DNA of 57,877 nt from contig CALVIE010000003.1 in the NCBI GenBank assembly GCA_944329385.1, positions 1-57,877 of the forward strand, given 5' to 3'. This DNA comes from an uncultured Bacilli bacterium. Lineage in GTDB: Bacteria > Bacillota_I > Bacilli_A > RF39 > UBA660. The notes beneath the pieces are model-generated. The model was not told where the DNA came from. It did no database searches and was given only the letters and a program-made list of their open reading frames with translations. Below are positions 1-57,877 of the stretch, in pieces; position 1 is the first letter of the stretch, and each line of letters opens with the position of its first letter. Position numbers and translations under genes: made by a program.

Positions 1-49
1 ATTATAGACACTTCCTTTCGTTGATTTTATTTTATCACTCTCTATATTT

Positions 50-361
50 TTGTGTCTATATATCTATACTAACACCAATATTATTGTAAATTATCCTAGA
101 AAAGAAAATGTTATTAAAGATAGATTATTTAATGATAGTTTAGATATTTTGTACTTAATTTATAAAGCTAATTATAGTAAAGATAGACGAAATATCCAAA
201 TTGAAATTCTAAGTAAAATTAGTATGCTTGATTTCTATTTAGAAAGAAGTTTAAAAAACAAATATATTAGTGAAAAACAATGCTTAAAAAAATCAAATCA
301 ACTACTTACTATCACTAAAATGGTACATGGATGGATTAAAAGTGATAAAAGTAAGTTATAA
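50..361 (+). CDS. Avd-like four-helix-bundle protein (DGR accessory variability determinant / 23S rRNA IVS protein family); N-terminus uncertain or shortened
   Basis: Helical pattern YPRKE..L..S.DILYLIYKAN...L..IS.LDFYLE..L...YIS......L......I.KM.HGWIKS is typical of Avd/IVS proteins. The 3' end overlaps the RT gene by 35 nt. The frame is open only from nt 8 and the start is TTG. Confidence 0.5.
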   Translation: MCLYIYTNTNIIVNYPRKENVIKDRLFNDSLDILYLIYKANYSKDRRNIQIEILSKISMLDFYLERSLKNKYISEKQCLKKSNQLLTITKMVHGWIKSDKSKL

Positions 362-1343
362 AGATTTATTAGATATTTATGAAAATGAAATATCCAAGAA
401 TGTTAAAAACAAGAAAAAGCTTTACAATTTTGAAAAATATAAAATCCAAAATATTACTAGAGCTATAAATAAAATAAACAATTTTGATAAAGAAGAATAT
501 AATATTTTCCTAATAAAAGAACCTAAAGAACGCATCGTCATGAGTTTAAATTTAGTAGATAAATTAATAAATCATTATATATCTAGAAAAATATTAATAC
601 CTAAATTAGAAAAATATTTAGATATTAGGAATGTTGCTACTAGAAAGAATATGGGCACTAGCTATGCCATTAAATTATTAAAAAAGTATTTAAACTTAAA
701 TAAAAAACATGGTGAATTTTATGCTTTAAAACTAGATATTTCTAAATATTTTTACAATATTGATCACACTAAATTAAAAAGTATGATTAAAGATAAATTA
801 AAAAGCGACGAATATAATTTGATATCTAAAATAATTGATAGTACAGACTATAAATATGTGAATGAAAAAATAAAAGTAATTAAAGAAAACAATAATGTAA
901 ATCATATACCTTACTATGCAAAAGGTAAAGGTCTGCCTATTGGGGGCTTATCCTTACAAATACTATCTACATATTATTTATCAGAAATAGATCACTTTAT
1001 TATTCATGATTTAAAAGTTAAATATTTCGTGCGTTATATGGATGATTTTATTTTAATAAATAATGATAAAGATTATTTAAAATACTGTTTAAAGCAAATA
1101 GAAAATAAATTAAAAGAATGTCATTTAAAATTAAATAACAAAAAAGTTCAAATAATAAATATTAAAAACGGTTTTACTTCTCTAGGCCACTATTTTATTT
1201 TAAAAAACAAATTAATAATAAAAAAATCAAATAGTGCGAAATATAAAATAAAAATAAATATCAAACTTAAAACAAAACTTTATAAACAAGAAAAAATTAC
1301 CTTTCAAAACTACTTCTGCTCTATAAATTCCTACAAAAACTAA
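327..1343 (+). CDS. Reverse transcriptase, diversity-generating-retroelement (DGR) type
   Basis: The motif series IKEPKERIV, ATRKNMGTSYA, LKLDISKYFYNIDH, GKGLPIGGLSLQ..YYLSEIDHF and RYMDDFILI matches the DGR RT pattern (EPK.R, SYA.R.G.G, LK.DI.KYF.SIDH, GLPIGNLTSQ, YMDD). Size is 338 aa and the Avd-like gene lies directly upstream. Confidence 0.8.
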   Translation: MDGLKVIKVSYKDLLDIYENEISKNVKNKKKLYNFEKYKIQNITRAINKINNFDKEEYNIFLIKEPKERIVMSLNLVDKLINHYISRKILIPKLEKYLDIRNVATRKNMGTSYAIKLLKKYLNLNKKHGEFYALKLDISKYFYNIDHTKLKSMIKDKLKSDEYNLISKIIDSTDYKYVNEKIKVIKENNNVNHIPYYAKGKGLPIGGLSLQILSTYYLSEIDHFIIHDLKVKYFVRYMDDFILINNDKDYLKYCLKQIENKLKECHLKLNNKKVQIINIKNGFTSLGHYFILKNKLIIKKSNSAKYKIKINIKLKTKLYKQEKITFQNYFCSINSYKN

Positions 1344-1353
1344 ACATAAATCA

Positions 1354-1382
1354 TTTACTTTTTTAATATATTTTGGTATAAT
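1354..1382 (+). promoter_or_regulatory. Putative sigma-A promoter of the rpsF operon (TTTACT-17-TATAAT), followed by a leader hairpin at 1410..1428
   Basis: The -35 and -10 hexamers have a 17-nt spacer. A GCTTTC-A7-GAAAGC hairpin lies in the leader before the strong SD GGAGGTG. Confidence 0.45.
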
Positions 1383-1456
1383 CATAGCCGAGTAATTAAT
1401 TTACTCCTTGCTTTCAAAAAAAGAAAGCCGAATTAGACCACAAGGAGGTGTAAAAA

Positions 1457-1747
1457 ATGAAAAACTATGAAATCATGTTTATTGTAAGACCAACATTAGG
1501 TGAAGATGAAGTAAAAAAAGTAGTAAATGATTTTAAAACAATCATCACTAAAAATGATGGTAAAGTAGCTAAAGAAGAAAACATGGGACAAAGAGAATTA
1601 GCTTATGAAATAAAGAATTTCAAAAGCGGTTATTACTTTGTTTTTGAAGTTGAAGCTGAAACAGATAAAGCGATTAAAGAATTTGACCGTTTAGCTCTTA
1701 TCAATAATGACATTGTTCGTCATTTAATTACAAAAATAGAAAAATAA
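1457..1747 (+). CDS. rpsF: 30S ribosomal protein S6
   Basis: MKNYEIMFIVRP start, 96 aa, in the classic rpsF-ssb-rpsR order. Confidence 0.95.
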   Translation: MKNYEIMFIVRPTLGEDEVKKVVNDFKTIITKNDGKVAKEENMGQRELAYEIKNFKSGYYFVFEVEAETDKAIKEFDRLALINNDIVRHLITKIEK

Positions 1748-1763
1748 GAAATGAGGTAGTTTT

Positions 1764-2222
1764 ATGAACAGAGTATGTTTAGTTGGTAGATTAACGGCAA
1801 AACCAGAATTGAGATATACAGGAAGCAATGTTCCTTATACAAGATTCTCACTCGCAGTAAATCGTACATTTAATAATGCCCAAGGAGAAAGACAAGCTGA
1901 CTTCATAAACATAGTAGTATGGCGTAGACAAGCTGAAAATGTCGCAAATTATTTAGACAAAGGTAGTCAAGTATCAATAGAAGGAAGAATCCAAACAGGA
2001 AGTTATACCGCTCAAGATGGAAGTAAAAGATATACTACAGATGTAGTTGCCGATAATGTTCAATTCTTAGATACAAAACGTCAAGCCGAAGCAAGAACAA
2101 ATAATCAATCACCTTATGATTATCAAGATGCTCCTGCTCCTATGAATGATGTTGATGTCGATAATGATCCTTTCGCAGATTTTGGAGATAACGTTTCAAT
2201 TGATGATAATTTCTTAGAATAG
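1764..2222 (+). CDS. ssb: Single-stranded DNA-binding protein
   Basis: MNRV.LVGRLT..PELRYT OB-fold start and an acidic C-terminal tail ending DDNFLE. Confidence 0.95.
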
Positions 2223-2231
2223 GAGGTAATT

Positions 2232-2447
2232 ATGGCAGAATTTCGTAGAAGAAAAAGAAAAGTATGTCAAATGTGTGCTGGTAAGCACGTAAGCTATAAA
2301 GACGATACTGTAAAAAAATATATTAGCTTAGATAAAGGTAAAATATTACCAAGAAGAATCACTGGTGCTTGTGCTAAACACCAAAGATATATTGCTAATG
2401 AAGTAAAAAAAGCTAGATTTATGGCTTTATTGCCATTTGTAAAATAA
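2232..2447 (+). CDS. rpsR: 30S ribosomal protein S18
   Basis: RRRKRKVC..C start, ILPRRITG and KHQR motifs, 71 aa. Confidence 0.95.
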
Positions 2448-2477
2448 ACATTTGCTCAAACAGTAAATGTTTTTTTC
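2446..2477 (+). terminator. Rho-independent terminator after rpsR
   Basis: AAACATTT ... AAATGTTT stem followed by a T-run. Confidence 0.7.
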
Positions 2478-2528
2478 TTAAAAATTTCACAAATTAATGT
2501 TATAATGAAACTAAAAGGAGGATAATAA

Positions 2529-3050
2529 GTGGAAGAAAAAGAAACATCATTAAAAGATATTGTAAAAAATGATTATCAAGAACAAACAATTCTAGATTTA
2601 AACGTACCAGACAATAAAATAGGAATTGCTAGTGACCATAGAGGTTATAATCTAAAACAAAAACTAACAAAATATTTAACCAAAAAAGGATATACTGTTA
2701 TTGACTATGGTTGTGATGATAAAACCAGTCATGACTATCCAAAATATGGATTTAAACTAGGAAAAGCCGTTCGTGATGGCAAAGTTGAAAAAGGTATCGC
2801 AATTTGTGGTAGCGGTATAGGAATAAGCATCGCTTGCAACAAAGTAAGCAAAGTAAGATGTGCAAAAATAGATAATATTAAAGAAGCTAAATACACAAGA
2901 AAAGATAACGATGCCAACATAATGGCCATAAATGGAAATATGCCATTAATTAGAGCTAAAGATATAACAGATGTATTTTTAAAAACCCCTTTTAGTAATG
3001 AAACTCGCCATAAAAATCGCATAAAAATGCTAGATGATTATAGAGAATAA
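2529..3050 (+). CDS. rpiB: Ribose-5-phosphate isomerase B (RpiB/LacA/LacB family)
   Basis: GIASDHRGY..K, DYP and GIAICGSGIGISIACNK motifs. GTG start after AGGAGG. Confidence 0.85.
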   Translation: MEEKETSLKDIVKNDYQEQTILDLNVPDNKIGIASDHRGYNLKQKLTKYLTKKGYTVIDYGCDDKTSHDYPKYGFKLGKAVRDGKVEKGIAICGSGIGISIACNKVSKVRCAKIDNIKEAKYTRKDNDANIMAINGNMPLIRAKDITDVFLKTPFSNETRHKNRIKMLDDYRE

Positions 3051-4218: not shown

Positions 4219-4857
4219 ATGAAAAAATTAAAAATAAAAAAACCAGTCATTTATAGTGCCTGCATCGCCGCCAGTCTTGCCCTAATTGGTGGTCTAATGT
4301 ATGCCAATACATCAAAACAAGATCTAAAACCAGAAGAAGACCTAATCTATGTCTCTAGACTATTTGATGATAATGTAACATCTGTAGTAAGTACACCGCA
4401 TGTAATAGTAAAACCATATACTAACACAAATATTAAAGTATTAAACACATTCTATGATTATCGAAGTGATGAAAGTACCCAGCAAAAATCCATTATTAAC
4501 TATGATACAACATACATTCAAAATAGCGGTGCATCTTATGGTGGTATAAATGAAACATTCGACGTTGTAAGCGTTTTACCAGGTACCGTCACATCAGTTA
4601 AAGAAGATAAACTAATGGGTAAAATTGTTACAATTGAGCACGATTCAAACATCATAACAACATACAAAAGTTTAAGTGAAGTTACCGTTAAAGAAGGCGA
4701 TAATGTAGCTCAAAGCACAGTCATTGGTAAAGCTGGCGAATCAAACTTAGAAAAAGATTTAGGAAAACACGTTTTATTTGAAATAACTGTTGATGGTAAA
4801 TATGTTAATCCAGAAAACTGTTTTAATAAAACAATCGACCAATTAAAGAGTAATTAA
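4219..4857 (+). CDS. M23/LytM-domain membrane protein (SpoIIQ-like)
   Basis: N-terminal TM segment. C-terminal GKIVTIEHD..I.T.Y.SL..V.VKEGD.V....IGKAG LytM-type beta-barrel pattern. Located next to spoIID. Confidence 0.6.
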   Translation: MKKLKIKKPVIYSACIAASLALIGGLMYANTSKQDLKPEEDLIYVSRLFDDNVTSVVSTPHVIVKPYTNTNIKVLNTFYDYRSDESTQQKSIINYDTTYIQNSGASYGGINETFDVVSVLPGTVTSVKEDKLMGKIVTIEHDSNIITTYKSLSEVTVKEGDNVAQSTVIGKAGESNLEKDLGKHVLFEITVDGKYVNPENCFNKTIDQLKSN

Positions 4858-5012
4858 AACTCTTTTTTTATATACTAGAAATTTGCTTTGTAAAAACAAA
4901 TTTTAAATAATCAAAACATCTGTTCAAAAAAATCTTTACAAAATAAATAGTTAAAACTCAAAAATTCATTTTAAAACATATAAATTATGTTATAATAAAA
5001 AAGGAGAAGCTT

Positions 5013-6026
5013 ATGAAGAAATTATGTATTATATTTATTATAACATTTTTAATAATGATTCCATCAGTAAATGCTAGTTCCGAAGGAAACAGAATAGCCG
5101 ACGCTGGAGCAAAATTAGCTGTTGGACTAAATGGAAATTATTATGTTAGATCACCAGGTACAAGAGTATCCGATCCGGCTGCTCAAAAATACATTAATGC
5201 TAGAGATTCATTAATACCAATAAGATCTTATCTGGGTGGCGATTACGCTAGTTGTGATATAACAGTATCTACAATCATAAGATATTCTGGTGTTGATCCA
5301 AACTTTGAACCCTTTGCTGTTCCTAAACAATGGGATTATATGGTAGCATCAGGAAAGTGGGAAATAGTTGGAAGGGGATATCATATAGGAGATGATTCTA
5401 GCCGGTTACGTCCAGGAGATGTTTTAGTCGTTGACAGAACTGTAGGTAACCAAGAAGCTAATATGCACATTTGGATTTTCTTAGGTAACAAAGCAGTTCA
5501 AAAATATTGGCCGGGAAATGATAGTGATGCAATACAAGGATCATATTCTTACACTCCATATGAAGCTTTTTACCCTAGCCTTTTTAAAGCTGCCACCAGT
5601 TGGGAACCGCCAAATAGATCATACGTAATTTTTAGGTATGATGGAGAAGATTATGTAGGAAATATCACAAAATGGGTTGAACAACTACAAGGATCATTTG
5701 AATTAGAAAAAATAGATGTATGTAGTATAATTTCTGGCACATTAAAAGATACATTAAATACATTATTTCAATATATATCTTTAGCTGGGATAATACTTTT
5801 AATTATTTTAACAATAATAGATTTAATAAAAGTAATTACTGGCAATCCTACAGAAAACTTTGTAAAATTTGGCCAAAACATAAAGGCAAGAATTATAACA
5901 TTAATCATATTATTAATATTGCCATTTTTGATAACCCTTATTATAGATGGAATTAATAAAATTGCTTCAATTACAGGATATCAGTCAGATAATCCATTAT
6001 GTGCTGTTGTTGAAAATAAAGAGTAG
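5013..6026 (+). CDS. Secreted protein with a possible Cys/His peptidase-like N-domain and two C-terminal TM helices
   Basis: Signal peptide. ASCDITVSTIIRYSG and HIWIFLG could form a Cys/His pair of NlpC/P60 or CHAP type (weak). Hydrophobic hairpin at the C-terminus. Confidence 0.3.
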   Translation: MKKLCIIFIITFLIMIPSVNASSEGNRIADAGAKLAVGLNGNYYVRSPGTRVSDPAAQKYINARDSLIPIRSYLGGDYASCDITVSTIIRYSGVDPNFEPFAVPKQWDYMVASGKWEIVGRGYHIGDDSSRLRPGDVLVVDRTVGNQEANMHIWIFLGNKAVQKYWPGNDSDAIQGSYSYTPYEAFYPSLFKAATSWEPPNRSYVIFRYDGEDYVGNITKWVEQLQGSFELEKIDVCSIISGTLKDTLNTLFQYISLAGIILLIILTIIDLIKVITGNPTENFVKFGQNIKARIITLIILLILPFLITLIIDGINKIASITGYQSDNPLCAVVENKE

Positions 6027-9190: not shown

Positions 9191-10249
9191 ATGACACAAA
9201 ACGAAATAGCCAATATTTTTCTCATGATTATTACAACATTTTTATTTGTTACTATTTTAATTCCATTTATAAAAAAAATAGCTATACACGTTGGAGCTTT
9301 AGATATTCCAAACAAAAGAAAAGTTCATAGTAAACCAATGCCAAGATTAGGTGGCCTTGCCATATTCTTCGGTTTCCTATTTGGATATATTCTATTTGGC
9401 GAACCTAGTAGTACCATGAACTCTATTTTAATCGGAAGCTTCATCATAGTATTAACCGGTGCTATTGACGATATTAAGCCATTAAAAGCTTCCGTAAAAT
9501 TTGTCGCTCAACTAATGGCTGCTATCGTTGTAACTTGCTATGGTAAACTTTTAATTCAAGATATTACAGCCTTTGGCTTTTACTTAGATTTAGGACTACT
9601 TGCCTACCCTATTACAATATTTTTTATCTTAGGTTGCCTAAACTGTATTAATCTAATTGATGGACTAGATGGCTTAGCTGCTGGTATTAGTTCAATTTAT
9701 TTTGCCACTATTGGAATCATTGCTATTATTATGGGAAAGACTGGATTAGACTTTATTTTAACATTCATTATGTTAGGTTCAGTTTTAGGATTTTTAGTTC
9801 ATAATTTCCACCCTGCTAGTATCTTTGCTGGTGATTCAGGATCATTATTCATGGGGTTTATGATAGCAGTTATCGCCCTACTTGGTTTTAAAAGTGTAAC
9901 CTTAACATCCCTAATAATTCCCCTACTTATACTAGCTATTCCTATCTTAGATACTATATTTGCTATTATAAGAAGATTATTAAAAGGTGAAAAAATATCT
10001 AAACCAGATAAATCTCATCTTCACCATCAACTTTTAAATAAAAACTTTTCCCACAAAGCAACCGTTTTGATTATCTATGGAATTGATATATTATTTGCCG
10101 CTGCCTCTATCATCTATGCTCTTCATGACCAAAAATTAGGTTATATTATATATACTATATTAACCATAATAGTTATTATATTCGTATTAAAAACCGACAT
10201 AATAGTAGATCAAGCAGCTTTCCATAAAAAACATAATAAAGAAAAATAA
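9191..10249 (+). CDS. tagO: Glycosyltransferase family 4, undecaprenyl-phosphate GlcNAc-1-phosphate transferase (TagO/WecA-like)
   Basis: P.KRKVH..P.PRLGGLAIF, DDIKPL, NLIDGLDGLAAG and FAGDSGSLF.GF motifs. Confidence 0.8.
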   Translation: MTQNEIANIFLMIITTFLFVTILIPFIKKIAIHVGALDIPNKRKVHSKPMPRLGGLAIFFGFLFGYILFGEPSSTMNSILIGSFIIVLTGAIDDIKPLKASVKFVAQLMAAIVVTCYGKLLIQDITAFGFYLDLGLLAYPITIFFILGCLNCINLIDGLDGLAAGISSIYFATIGIIAIIMGKTGLDFILTFIMLGSVLGFLVHNFHPASIFAGDSGSLFMGFMIAVIALLGFKSVTLTSLIIPLLILAIPILDTIFAIIRRLLKGEKISKPDKSHLHHQLLNKNFSHKATVLIIYGIDILFAAASIIYALHDQKLGYIIYTILTIIVIIFVLKTDIIVDQAAFHKKHNKEK

Positions 10250-49551: not shown

Positions 49552-50475
49552 TTACATTGAAATTTCAAATGGAATTTCTTTTGAACCATCTCCTGAAACT
49601 ATTTGTACTTTACTAGACAAATATAAAGATGGGCGAACTGCAAACGGATTGATAACGCTGTAGATGTCGACGAAGCCGTCTGAATACACGAAGAACACAT
49701 TACTAGAGTCACCGGCATAAGGCGACAACGTCCACCAATTAGTATTATTCTGCATCCATGTTGTATTTTTACAAATATCATTATTATCTTGATTTAACGC
49801 ATGCGTTCCACAACTACTTTGATTACTATTACTTCTTATATATTCGCTCATTGTTATTAAGGCTACTTTACCATTCCATTTCTTACTATTTTCATCATTT
49901 ATTTGATTTGCCAAATCATTATTACCCCATGTTGCTGAACCTATGCTCCAATCTTTTGTAACAATCTGTCCTTGAACTGCAGAGTTTAGTGTTTCTGTCA
50001 AATAGCTTTCATTTAAATACGTATTTAAATTGACTGGTCGTGCCCAATTATTTGAATATGATGAGTCCCACACTCTATTTCCTATACTTGCATCCCTCAT
50101 TATTTTTATTGTCTTATCTGGCTCTATCGATACTATTCTCCATGTTTCATTATTGAACGTTATATAATTATTTACATTTTTCCCTTTATAAAAATATCTT
50201 CCTTCTTCATAGTTATCTTTGTATAATCCATCACCAGAATCAACTACAGGATTTTTTTCTAATATTATATCTCCTCCTGTTTTTGGCGGAAAACAAGCAC
50301 TATAAAGTTCATCTATTGCTCCTTGTACGTCAGTACTTTTTAAACCACTTATTCCATTATTATAAGTAACTTGATTGCTTGGAAAAAGTGTAGTTGCAAA
50401 AACGCCTATACCACTAAATAAAAATGCAGTTGCTATAAATATAAACAATCTATTTTTAAGAATTTTTTTAAACAT
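49552..50475 (-). CDS. Secreted/anchored protein with C-terminal WW..SP...V...G....VRP.LYL domain (candidate DGR target)
   Basis: N-terminal TM or signal segment. VQGAIDELY motif. The C-terminal region carries an anomalous A-poor, NNC-rich patch. ATG at 50475 follows AGGAAGGTG. Confidence 0.6.
   Translation of the reverse strand: MFKKILKNRLFIFIATAFLFSGIGVFATTLFPSNQVTYNNGISGLKSTDVQGAIDELYSACFPPKTGGDIILEKNPVVDSGDGLYKDNYEEGRYFYKGKNVNNYITFNNETWRIVSIEPDKTIKIMRDASIGNRVWDSSYSNNWARPVNLNTYLNESYLTETLNSAVQGQIVTKDWSIGSATWGNNDLANQINDENSKKWNGKVALITMSEYIRSNSNQSSCGTHALNQDNNDICKNTTWMQNNTNWWTLSPYAGDSSNVFFVYSDGFVDIYSVINPFAVRPSLYLSSKVQIVSGDGSKEIPFEISM
49630..49737 (-). repeat. Candidate DGR variable region (VR)
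   Basis: Hand counts on the coding strand give 18 A and 54 G+C in 108 nt. The 60 nt just upstream have 28 A and 15 G+C. 14 of 36 codons are NNC, including 8 consecutive. No matching TR is present in the window. Confidence 0.45.
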
Positions 50476-50524
50476 CAACCTTATCACCTTCCTATATAAT
50501 TAATTTAAAAATATTATATCACAA

Positions 50525-57763: not shown

Positions 57764-57877
57764 CTATAAGGTATATGGATTATTTTGGCTTCCATCTCCT
57801 CCAGTGATTTTTACTTCTGATGAAAGATATACCGCAGGACGAACACCCGTACTTCCAGAAGAACTACCATAATTAAA
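57764..57877 (-). CDS. 3' end (partial, runs off the window) of a paralog of 49552..50475
   Basis: The minus strand reads FNYGSSSGSTGVRPAVYLSSEVKITGGDGSQNNPYTL*. The paralog reads ...AVRPSLYLSSKVQIVSGDGSKEIP. Confidence 0.6.
   Translation of the reverse strand, partial: FNYGSSSGSTGVRPAVYLSSEVKITGGDGSQNNPYTL

What the first reader, a model, noticed from the sequence alone, without database searches (positions are those of the whole stretch)
50..1343. DGR-type RT overlapping an Avd-like gene, with no template repeat visible and a variant SQ motif, directly upstream of rpsF-ssb-rpsR
The RT shows the DGR motif series. The fidelity-linked (I/L)GxxxSQ motif reads IGGLSLQ, so Ser is replaced by Leu.

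The Avd-like ORF overlaps the RT by 35 nt, so the usual avd-TR-RT spacing is absent. The 113 nt downstream of the RT carry the rpsF promoter and leader, are too short for a typical TR, and show no similarity to the VR candidate. The Avd-like ORF also seems to lack its first helix, because its frame opens only at nt 8.

Either the TR and primary target lie just left of the window, or this is a degenerate or retargeted cassette.
Basis: partly seen in the sequence, partly recalled or inferred. Interest (0 to 1): 0.65.

Follow-up and report, generated by a model that had tools for sequence, protein, structure and literature searches.

The report
DGR cassette broken by an insertion sequence
This is a real diversity-generating retroelement (reverse transcriptase plus Avd helper) from a chicken-gut bacterium; its template repeat is missing because a mobile IS3-type element has inserted into the helper gene and the assembled contig stops inside that element, which makes it an ordinary, probably disabled copy.

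Summary

Relatives with 50-96% RT identity all share one order: target(VR), small ORF, TR, MutS-domain-I-like ORF (MSL), avd, RT. In them avd also overlaps the RT and the TR lies about 0.6 kb upstream of avd. This matches the MSL+avd "Architecture D" of Wu et al.

TR/VR mismatches in relatives fall on TR adenines (13/13 and 17/19).

Window nt 1-77 are not avd. They are the left terminal repeat of an IS3-family insertion sequence, ending TG at nt 77, with orfA reading leftwards. It sits after nt 55 of avd. In run X1 this stretch is about 6x deeper than the RT, and the contig breaks in it.

Seven other runs carry an intact avd. Ser-to-Leu (T955) is specific to this lineage: 0 of 117 homologues have Leu. 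So is Y265C.

The cassette has lost the first 18 Avd codons and its direct link to MSL, TR and targets, so it is probably inactive. It is a new member of a known kind, of low interest.

The parts
1..77 (-). Left end (IRL side) of an IS3-family insertion sequence. The terminal TG is at nt 77-76 on the minus strand. The start of transposase orfA (GTG-TCT-ATA-AT..) is at nt 11-1, reading leftwards off the contig.
   Evidence: The reverse complement of nt 1-77 aligns with L010:4508-4584, the start of a 1,275-bp IS with orfA (HTH_Tnp_1, E=8.7e-12) and orfB (rve, E=2.6e-25; HTH_21). The 30-mer at nt 48-77 occurs in 51 stretches of species-representative genomes, mostly 24-55 nt from contig ends. Depth is 64x against 10.7x for the RT in run X1, with many different flanks behind nt 77/78.
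78..361 (+). 5'-truncated avd. It runs from the second base of codon 19 to the stop; the first 55 nt of the gene are missing.
   Evidence: Homology to the intact avd of L007, L008, L009 and L002 starts exactly at nt 78. tblastn gives 93% identity to L002 Avd residues 13-113. The bAvd profile is covered only at positions 16-106/107 here, against 2-106/107 in L007. The intact L007 Avd matches PHROG 'Avd protein of DGR' at E=1.6e-15.
327..1343 (+). DGR-clade reverse transcriptase, full length (338 aa). An alternative start at GTG 342, preceded by GGATGG, is possible.
   Evidence: dN/dS against the closest relatives is 0.09-0.18. Relatives are flanked by TR/VR pairs with adenine-specific mismatches.
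939..959 (+). RT motif 4, IGGLSLQ. The Leu210 codon TTA is at 954-956; relatives have TCA (Ser).
   Evidence: T955 is seen in runs X1 and X2. C955 is seen in X3, X5, X6, X7 and X8.
1035..1046 (+). Catalytic YMDD, intact.
   Evidence: Read directly from the sequence. M238, D239 and D240 are invariant and Y237 is nearly invariant in alignment A3.
1119..1121 (+). Cys265 codon (TGT). This is the second lineage-specific change at a conserved site; 111 of 117 homologues have Tyr.
   Evidence: nt 1120 is G here and A in L007.
1344..1456 (+). RT-rpsF intergenic region with a promoter-like site at 1354-1382. Not part of the DGR and contains no TR.
49552..50487 (-). 311-aa DUF6273 protein, a paralogue of the DGR targets of relatives. 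It has a 50% GC island (49631-49730) where relatives carry the VR. No cognate TR is in the window. Whether it belongs to this DGR is not established.
   Evidence: tblastn against L002 target 2 gives 36% identity, E=2e-42. DUF6273 E=2.4e-12. GC island. A-tolerant TR scans were negative.
57767..57877 (-). 3' end of another gene of the same target-type family. Its conserved tail is multicopy, which explains the right-hand contig break.
   Evidence: tblastn gives 72% identity to the last 29 aa of L002 target 2. Depth reaches 309x against 12.9x for the flank, with many flanks. It does not match the relatives' TR at non-A positions, read directly.

Best explanation
The window starts inside an IS3-family insertion sequence that has transposed into the avd gene of a chromosomal DGR.

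The DGR belongs to a low-GC (27.7%) bacterium found in chicken-gut metagenomes, probably one of the uncultured Bacilli. The ancestral cassette, still intact in related strains, has this order: DUF6273-type target gene(s) with a C-terminal VR, a 93-97 aa ORF, the TR, about 250 nt of conserved non-coding RNA, a MutS-domain-I-like accessory gene (MSL, 116-121 aa), avd, then the RT. avd overlaps the RT by 11-35 nt.

Shown: in this copy the IS sits after nt 55 of avd. Only codons 19 onward of avd and the whole RT remain next to rpsF-ssb-rpsR. The contig ends inside the IS.

Inferred: the other half of the cassette (avd 5' end, MSL, TR, targets) lies beyond the IS on another contig. It was not recovered.

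Inferred, from bRT needing Avd for any cDNA synthesis: the Avd remnant lacks its start codon and the first 18 codons, and I saw no ribosome-binding site by eye upstream of the in-frame TTG at nt 50. The DGR is therefore most likely switched off in this lineage.

Inferred: the Ser210Leu and Tyr265Cys changes at otherwise conserved RT positions fit recent relaxed constraint. They could also be neutral polymorphisms.
For: - Breakpoint: the window aligns with the intact avd of four relatives only from nt 78.
- IS identity: nt 1-77 match the first 77 nt of a 1,275-bp element that begins TG and ends CA and carries HTH_Tnp_1 and rve ORFs. The junction falls exactly at the element's terminal TG.
- Multicopy: depth is 64x against 10.7x, with many flanks. 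The terminal 30-mer lies near the contig ends of many MAGs.
- Intact allele: a sequence identical to window nt 78 onward, preceded by the normal avd 5' part, is seen in X4, X5, X6, X7, X8 and X14. X3's contig also runs 122 nt upstream of nt 78.
- Architecture and activity in relatives: L002 has 13 of 13 TR-VR mismatches at TR adenines and L006 has 17 of 19. L068, at 50% RT identity, has the same gene order and a TR/VR pair.
- Synteny: L008, at 91% RT identity, has MSL-avd-RT-rpsF with the TR at its left end.
- MSL identity: homologues of the 116-aa ORF pass Pfam MutS_I at 26-35 bits against a 20.6-bit cut-off.
- Avd requirement: stated in bioRxiv 10.1101/2023.10.23.563531.
- Lineage-specific RT changes: S210L and Y265C, against a background dN/dS of 0.09-0.18.
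Against: - Only 77 nt of the IS are in the window. The other junction and the upstream half of the cassette were not recovered.
- The best-matching run, X1 (contig L001), carries the identical RT but not this junction. Its avd is cut at nt 99/100 by a different repeat end. The exact state in the source sample is therefore not fully settled.
- The RT ORF is intact and YMDD is present.
- LQ resembles the AQ and VQ variants reported in apparently functional DGRs (PMC3521204).
- Loss of activity was not measured.
Confidence: 0.75

Rival explanations
1. The DGR is intact and working. The contig simply ends in it, and nt 1-77 are an assembly artefact joined on at the contig end.
For: Contig ends are error-prone. 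X1 and X2 have no Logan contig over nt 89-96. L001 shows a different left flank.
Against: The join falls exactly at the terminal TG of the IS and exactly where homology to avd starts. The same IS end sits at many other MAG contig ends, as expected for a true repeat boundary. The alternative state in X1 also truncates avd. No assembly of this lineage, defined by T955, shows an intact avd.
Confidence: 0.07
2. The DGR is split but still works. The RT is translated from its own start (GTG 342 with GGATGG upstream). A shortened Avd is made from TTG at nt 50 or supplied by another locus. The TR RNA acts in trans from the far side of the IS.
For: The RT ORF and YMDD are intact. DGR components can lie in separate transcription units (PMC5758913). 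Target-type paralogues with a VR-like GC island exist in the window.
Against: bRT needs Avd, and 18 N-terminal codons of Avd are gone. I saw no ribosome-binding site by eye upstream of nt 50 in the sequence. Promoter-like hits in nt 1-1500 are no more frequent than in shuffles, 13 against 14.0 +/- 3.9. No cognate TR/VR is visible.
Confidence: 0.13
3. The RT is not a DGR enzyme here. It would be a group II intron, retron or defence-type (UG/Abi/DRT) RT, or an RT co-opted for a function linked to the neighbouring ssb and ribosomal genes.
For: NCBIfam's best hit is group_II_RT_mat, and PADLOC lists many weak DRT/UG hits. The SQ motif deviates.
Against: Those hits are far below their cut-offs, for example 69 bits against 300. 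No group II intron or other RNA family is found in nt 1-3000. The best solved-structure match is bRT. Close relatives sit in complete DGRs with adenine-specific TR/VR pairs. The rpsF neighbourhood is not conserved in L002, L006, L067 or L068.
Confidence: 0.03

Closest known systems
MSL-containing DGRs ('Architecture D' of Wu et al. 2018, NAR 46:11, PMC5758913)
   Same: Relatives carry a small MutS-domain-I-like accessory gene together with avd, a TR and an RT, with all components on one strand.
   Different: The window keeps only the avd 3' part and the RT. The exact sub-architecture (target, 93-97 aa ORF, TR, MSL, avd, RT) was not compared with the paper's supplementary list. The MSL protein here is basic (pI 9.35), whereas the paper reports a mean of 7.2.
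Bordetella phage BPP-1 DGR (bRT, Avd, TR, Mtd; PDB 8ub7)
   Same: It is the best solved-structure match of the RT (E=2.2e-22). Both have an Avd partner, a YMDD motif and motif 4 of the form IGxxx-Q. Relatives show adenine-specific TR-to-VR differences.
   Different: The gene order differs: BPP-1 is avd-TR-RT, here it is TR-MSL-avd-RT with avd overlapping the RT. This element is chromosomal, not on a phage. The targets are DUF6273 proteins, not Mtd. Motif 4 ends LQ instead of SQ. avd is interrupted.
IS3-family insertion sequences
   Same: The full copy L010:4508-5782 has TG...CA ends, imperfect terminal repeats, orfA with HTH_Tnp_1 and orfB with HTH_21 + rve, and is 1,275 bp long.
   Different: Only the first 77 nt lie in the window. 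The target-site duplication and the frameshift signal were not examined. The element was not matched to a named IS.
DGR RTs with variant SQ motifs (SP, SH, NQ, PA, AQ, VQ; Schillinger et al. 2012, PMC3521204)
   Same: The change is at the Ser position and Gln is kept.
   Different: LQ is not among the listed variants. Here it is a change private to one lineage (0 of 117 homologues), not a clade trait.

Membership tests
Diversity-generating retroelement (DGR) | RT of the DGR clade | tested here: met
   The best PDB match is bRT 8ub7 at E=2.2e-22. Homologues at 50-96% identity sit in cassettes with Avd and TR/VR. No formal phylogeny was made.
Diversity-generating retroelement (DGR) | [I/V/L]GxxxSQ signature in RT motif 4 | tested here: not met
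   The motif reads IGGLSLQ. I, G and Q are kept and Ser is Leu. All 23 aligned relatives have SQ. The literature reports that about 10% of DGRs deviate from the motif.
Diversity-generating retroelement (DGR) | TR/VR pair differing at TR adenines | tested here: not met
   None is in the window. The best match to the relatives' TRs is 34 of 72 non-A positions, against 72/72 and 62/72 in controls. No long direct repeats were found. The feature is met in relatives: 13/13 and 17/19 mismatches at A. The rest of the genome could not be searched.
Diversity-generating retroelement (DGR) | Accessory protein Avd | tested here: inconclusive
   The gene is homologous to avd but truncated. The bAvd score is 38.7 bits, below the 40-bit cut-off, and covers profile positions 16-106. 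Full-length relatives score 40.8 bits and match PHROG Avd at E=1.6e-15.
Diversity-generating retroelement (DGR) | Target gene with the VR at its 3' end | tested here: inconclusive
   Two DUF6273 paralogues of the relatives' targets lie in the window, one with a VR-like GC island. Neither matches any known TR.
DGR Architecture D (MSL + avd) | MutS-like small accessory gene in the cassette | tested here: met
   This was tested in relatives, not in the window. The 116-121 aa ORF lies between TR and avd. The ORF itself has no Pfam hit. Its homologues, found at E from 1e-28 to 1e-06, pass the MutS_I gathering score. In the window the gene would lie beyond the IS.
IS3 family insertion sequence | Two ORFs: orfA with HTH_Tnp_1 and orfB with a DDE rve integrase | tested here: met
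   Shown on the full copy L010:4575-4856 and 4907-5740. The window holds only the orfA start.
IS3 family insertion sequence | Terminal inverted repeats ending 5'-TG...CA-3' | tested here: met
   L010 begins TGGTGTTAG and ends AAATCCA, with imperfect repeats. The window terminus TG is at nt 77-76.
IS3 family insertion sequence | 3-4 bp target-site duplication at the insertion | not testable with these tools
   The other junction is off the contig. Look-ups for a longer contig failed.
Group II intron RT / retron / defence RT (UG, Abi, DRT) | Family-level score, with an associated intron RNA, msr-msd or effector | tested here: not met
   group_II_RT_mat scores 69 bits against a 300-bit cut-off, and the Drt models score no more than 41 bits against cut-offs of 200-550. 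No Rfam family matches nt 1-3000.

The most novel reading that the evidence does not exclude
The DGR is being dismantled by selection rather than by accident. In one near-clonal lineage, with identical RT DNA that includes Leu210 and Cys265, avd is cut by two different mobile-element ends only 22 nt apart: the IS3 end at nt 77|78 in the window, and another repeat end at nt 99|100 in run X1. All other strains keep avd intact and keep Ser. This would mean repeated independent knock-outs of the helper gene while the RT ORF is retained, either to silence costly hypermutation or because the RT has taken on an Avd-independent role.
Probability: 0.1. Interest if true: 0.45.

Novelty: new member of a known kind. 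Interest (0 to 1): 0.2.

Why it matters
The practical lessons are the main value.

- A DGR RT with no visible TR at a contig edge need not be a new kind of retroelement. In this clade the TR normally lies upstream of MSL-avd-RT.
- Repeats such as IS copies, multicopy target-gene tails and TR/VR pairs break short-read assemblies exactly there.
- DGR surveys that demand a TR/VR pair on the same contig will miss such loci or misclassify them.

Biologically, the window gives a natural example of a DGR inactivated by an IS. It also provides an untested SQ-to-LQ variant next to the dNTP-contacting Gln.

Tried and rejected
- Repeat search over the whole window found only chance AT-rich matches.
- A-tolerant scans with four relatives' TRs, and the reverse scan with the VR-like island 49631-49730, found no partner.
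- Leftward extension by exact-protein look-up failed. The RT gave only the 1,285-nt L001. The chimeric Avd ORF is not on record. RpsF gave only short contigs.
A metagenome scan with that 24-mer gave three contigs. These show a repeat end of unknown nature.
- Runs labelled RNA-seq cover only related strains, at low and even depth. They say nothing about expression.
Only the homologue search linked it to MutS_I.
- No Rfam model matched the rpsF leader.
- I considered and rejected a circular joining of the two contig ends. The target-type gene at the right end is on the opposite strand and does not match the relatives' TRs.

Full report
**What is at the coordinates.**
- ORF 327-1343 (+) encodes a 338-aa reverse transcriptase.
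  - Pfam RVT_1 matches at E=3.4e-16.
  - The PHROG 'Reverse transcriptase' family matches at E=1.2e-60.
  - The best match among solved structures is the Bordetella phage DGR enzyme bRT (8ub7, E=2.2e-22). A group II intron RT follows at 9e-07.
- The ORF ending at 361 matches bAvd and NCBIfam DivGenRetAVD at E of about 1e-9 to 1e-11. Both scores are below the curated cut-offs, and the first 15 profile positions are missing.
- The two ORFs overlap by 35 nt.
- Motif 4 reads IGGLSLQ (nt 939-959), and YMDD is intact (nt 1035-1046).
- The 113 nt downstream hold a promoter-like site with an extended -10 (1354-1382). They are near-identical to the rpsF upstream region of a syntenic relative. They contain nothing like a TR.
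- The window is ordinary low-GC (27.7%) chromosome. It carries rpsF-ssb-rpsR, BipA, an SNF2 helicase, AddAB-like nucleases, a Clp ATPase and others.
- Matching public runs are mostly chicken-gut metagenomes.

**What relatives show.** The RT has thousands of homologues. I fetched loci for relatives at 96, 91, 81, 74 and 50% identity.
- All have the same order on one strand:
  - DUF6273-type target gene(s) with a VR near the 3' end;
  - a 93-97 aa ORF;
  - the TR in an intergenic gap;
  - about 250 nt of strongly conserved non-coding sequence ending in a hairpin;
  - a 116-121 aa ORF;
  - avd (110-114 aa);
  - the RT, which avd overlaps by 11-35 nt.
- The TR lies about 0.6 kb upstream of the avd start.
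- TR-VR differences are adenine-specific. In L002 all 13 mismatches fall on TR adenines, and in L006 17 of 19 do.
- L008, at 91% RT identity, is syntenic with the window (RT then rpsF) and has the TR at its left end.
- The avd/RT overlap and the absence of a TR between or after them are therefore the clade's normal state.
- The 116-aa ORF has no direct family hit. Its homologues include proteins that pass the Pfam MutS_I gathering score at 26-35 bits against 20.6. This identifies it with the 'MSL' accessory gene, and the clade with the MSL+avd 'Architecture D' of Wu et al. (PMC5758913).

**Why the TR is not visible here.**
- The window aligns with the intact avd of four relatives only from nt 78. 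Nt 1-77 are unrelated to avd.
- The reverse complement of nt 1-77 matches the first 77 nt of a 1,275-bp element in a complete MAG chromosome (L010:4508-5782).
  - That element begins TGGTGTTAG and ends AAATCCA.
  - It encodes a 93-aa HTH_Tnp_1 protein and a 277-aa HTH_21/rve protein, the IS3-family layout.
- The element's terminal TG is exactly at window nt 77-76. Its orfA start (GTG TCT ATA AT) is at nt 11-1, reading off the contig.
- In public runs nt 1-77 are about six-fold deeper than the RT (64x against 10.7x in X1). Several different sequences follow nt 77/78.
- The terminal 30-mer lies 24-55 nt from the ends of many MAG contigs. This is the signature of a multicopy repeat that breaks assemblies.
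- The window starts exactly 77 nt inside the IS. That fits a k=77 assembly-graph overlap, which is my inference.
- The IS therefore sits after nt 55 of avd, in codon 19. The in-frame residues encoded by nt 8-77 are IS sequence, not an Avd helix.
- The right end of the contig breaks in another repeat, the conserved 3' tail of a multicopy DUF6273-type gene family, at up to 309x against 12.9x.

**Population context.**
- Contigs identical to window nt 78 onward, but preceded by the normal avd 5' part, occur in runs X4, X5, X6, X7, X8 and X14. X3's contig also extends 122 nt upstream of nt 78.
- Leu210 (T955) is found only in the window and in X1/X2. X3, X5, X6, X7 and X8 have C955, which is Ser.
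- Of 117 full-length homologues, 112 have Ser, 5 have Asn and none has Leu.
- A second private change, Y265C, hits a site where 111 of 117 have Tyr.
- Background dN/dS against the nearest relatives is 0.09-0.18. The gene was therefore under purifying selection until recently.
- One point is unexplained.
  - The Logan contig L001 of run ERR4096284 encodes the identical RT but lacks the IS3 junction. Its avd is cut at nt 99/100 by another sequence, ...TTGACATTTACA.
  - The same sequence starts two metagenome contigs and looks like another repeat end.
  - Either way, avd is 5'-truncated in this lineage.

**Mechanism and likely state.**
- By homology, the intact relatives should work like the Bordetella DGR. 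In that system, a TR-containing RNA with downstream structured RNA is bound by RT-Avd. It is reverse-transcribed with misincorporation at adenines, and the cDNA replaces the VR.
- bRT has no activity without Avd (bioRxiv 10.1101/2023.10.23.563531).
- In the window the Avd gene has lost its start and 18 codons. I saw no ribosome-binding site by eye upstream of the in-frame TTG at nt 50. At least one IS separates the RT from the TR, MSL and targets.
- I therefore consider the cassette most likely inactive (inference).
- The effect of Ser-to-Leu is unknown.
  - The experimentally fidelity-linked residue is the first one of the motif, bRT I181.
  - Q187P left misincorporation unchanged.
  - The Ser position was not tested (PMC7826257).
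  - AQ, VQ and NQ variants exist in apparently active DGRs (PMC3521204).

**Other target-type genes in the window.**
- ORF 49552-50487 (-) is a DUF6273 protein, 36% identical to a relative's target. It has a 50% GC island where relatives carry the VR.
- Neither it nor the right-end fragment matches the relatives' TRs at non-A positions, and no TR for them is in the window. Whether they are or were diversified cannot be decided from this contig.

**Verdict.** The puzzling features have ordinary causes: a known MSL+avd architecture with the TR upstream, an IS3 insertion in avd, and a contig that ends in that repeat. This is a new member of a known kind, probably a recently disabled copy, and of low interest.

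Noticed in passing
L001:1-29 (abuts window nt 100); L062:1-37; L063:1-37; L061:2027-2063: A near-clonal assembly with the identical RT has avd cut at nt 99/100 by a different repeat end, TTTGACATAATTATAAACTTTTATGTTGACATTTACA. That makes a second, independent-looking truncation 22 nt from the IS3 junction. The nature of this repeat is unknown.
   Followed up: partly
window 57767-57877 (-), especially 57770-57830: The conserved 3' tail (KITGGDGSQNNPY..) of a DUF6273-type gene reaches 309x depth against 12.9x for its flank, with many different flanks. This points to a large multicopy family of target-type surface proteins and explains the right-hand contig break.
   Followed up: partly
window 49552-50487 (-), GC island 49631-49730: A 311-aa DUF6273 paralogue of DGR targets has a 50% GC island (genome 27.7%) exactly where relatives carry the VR, ending GCAGTTCGCCCATC. 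It looks like a VR, or a former VR, of a TR that is not in the window.
   Followed up: partly
L007:608-958, L008:353-703, L002:9339-9689, L006:2902-3267, L068:5308-5670: A conserved basic 116-121 aa ORF lies between the TR and avd. Its homologues pass Pfam MutS_I, so it is the MSL accessory gene of Wu et al. Its role in DGRs is unknown.
   Followed up: yes
L002:8702-8995, L007:3-236, L068:4578-4859 and 9414-9695: A 93-97 aa ORF with no family hit always sits between the target gene and the TR, and ends just before the TR. It may be a further conserved accessory gene of this clade.
   Followed up: no
L007:356-600, L008:103-345, L002:9116-9335, L006:2680-2900: About 250 nt directly after the TR are very strongly conserved across relatives and end in the hairpin AAAGCAGTATT...AATACTGCTTTT. 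This is a candidate spacer/priming RNA, analogous to the Bordetella Sp segment. It was not folded or tested for covariation.
   Followed up: no
L068:4869-4975 and 9705-9811: A relative from a Hadza gut metagenome, at 50% RT identity, carries two identical TR copies, one on each side of the RT. Each follows a target gene and a 93-aa ORF.
   Followed up: partly
L010:2500-3243 and 4508-5782: The complete MAG chromosome has a full IS3-family copy and, 2 kb upstream, a partial copy with the same orfA but an orfB replaced after 33 codons. This is evidence of IS-mediated rearrangement in these genomes.
   Followed up: no
window 1119-1121: RT Tyr265 is Cys here, whereas 111 of 117 homologues have Tyr. 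It is a second private substitution at a conserved site, alongside Ser210Leu.
   Followed up: partly
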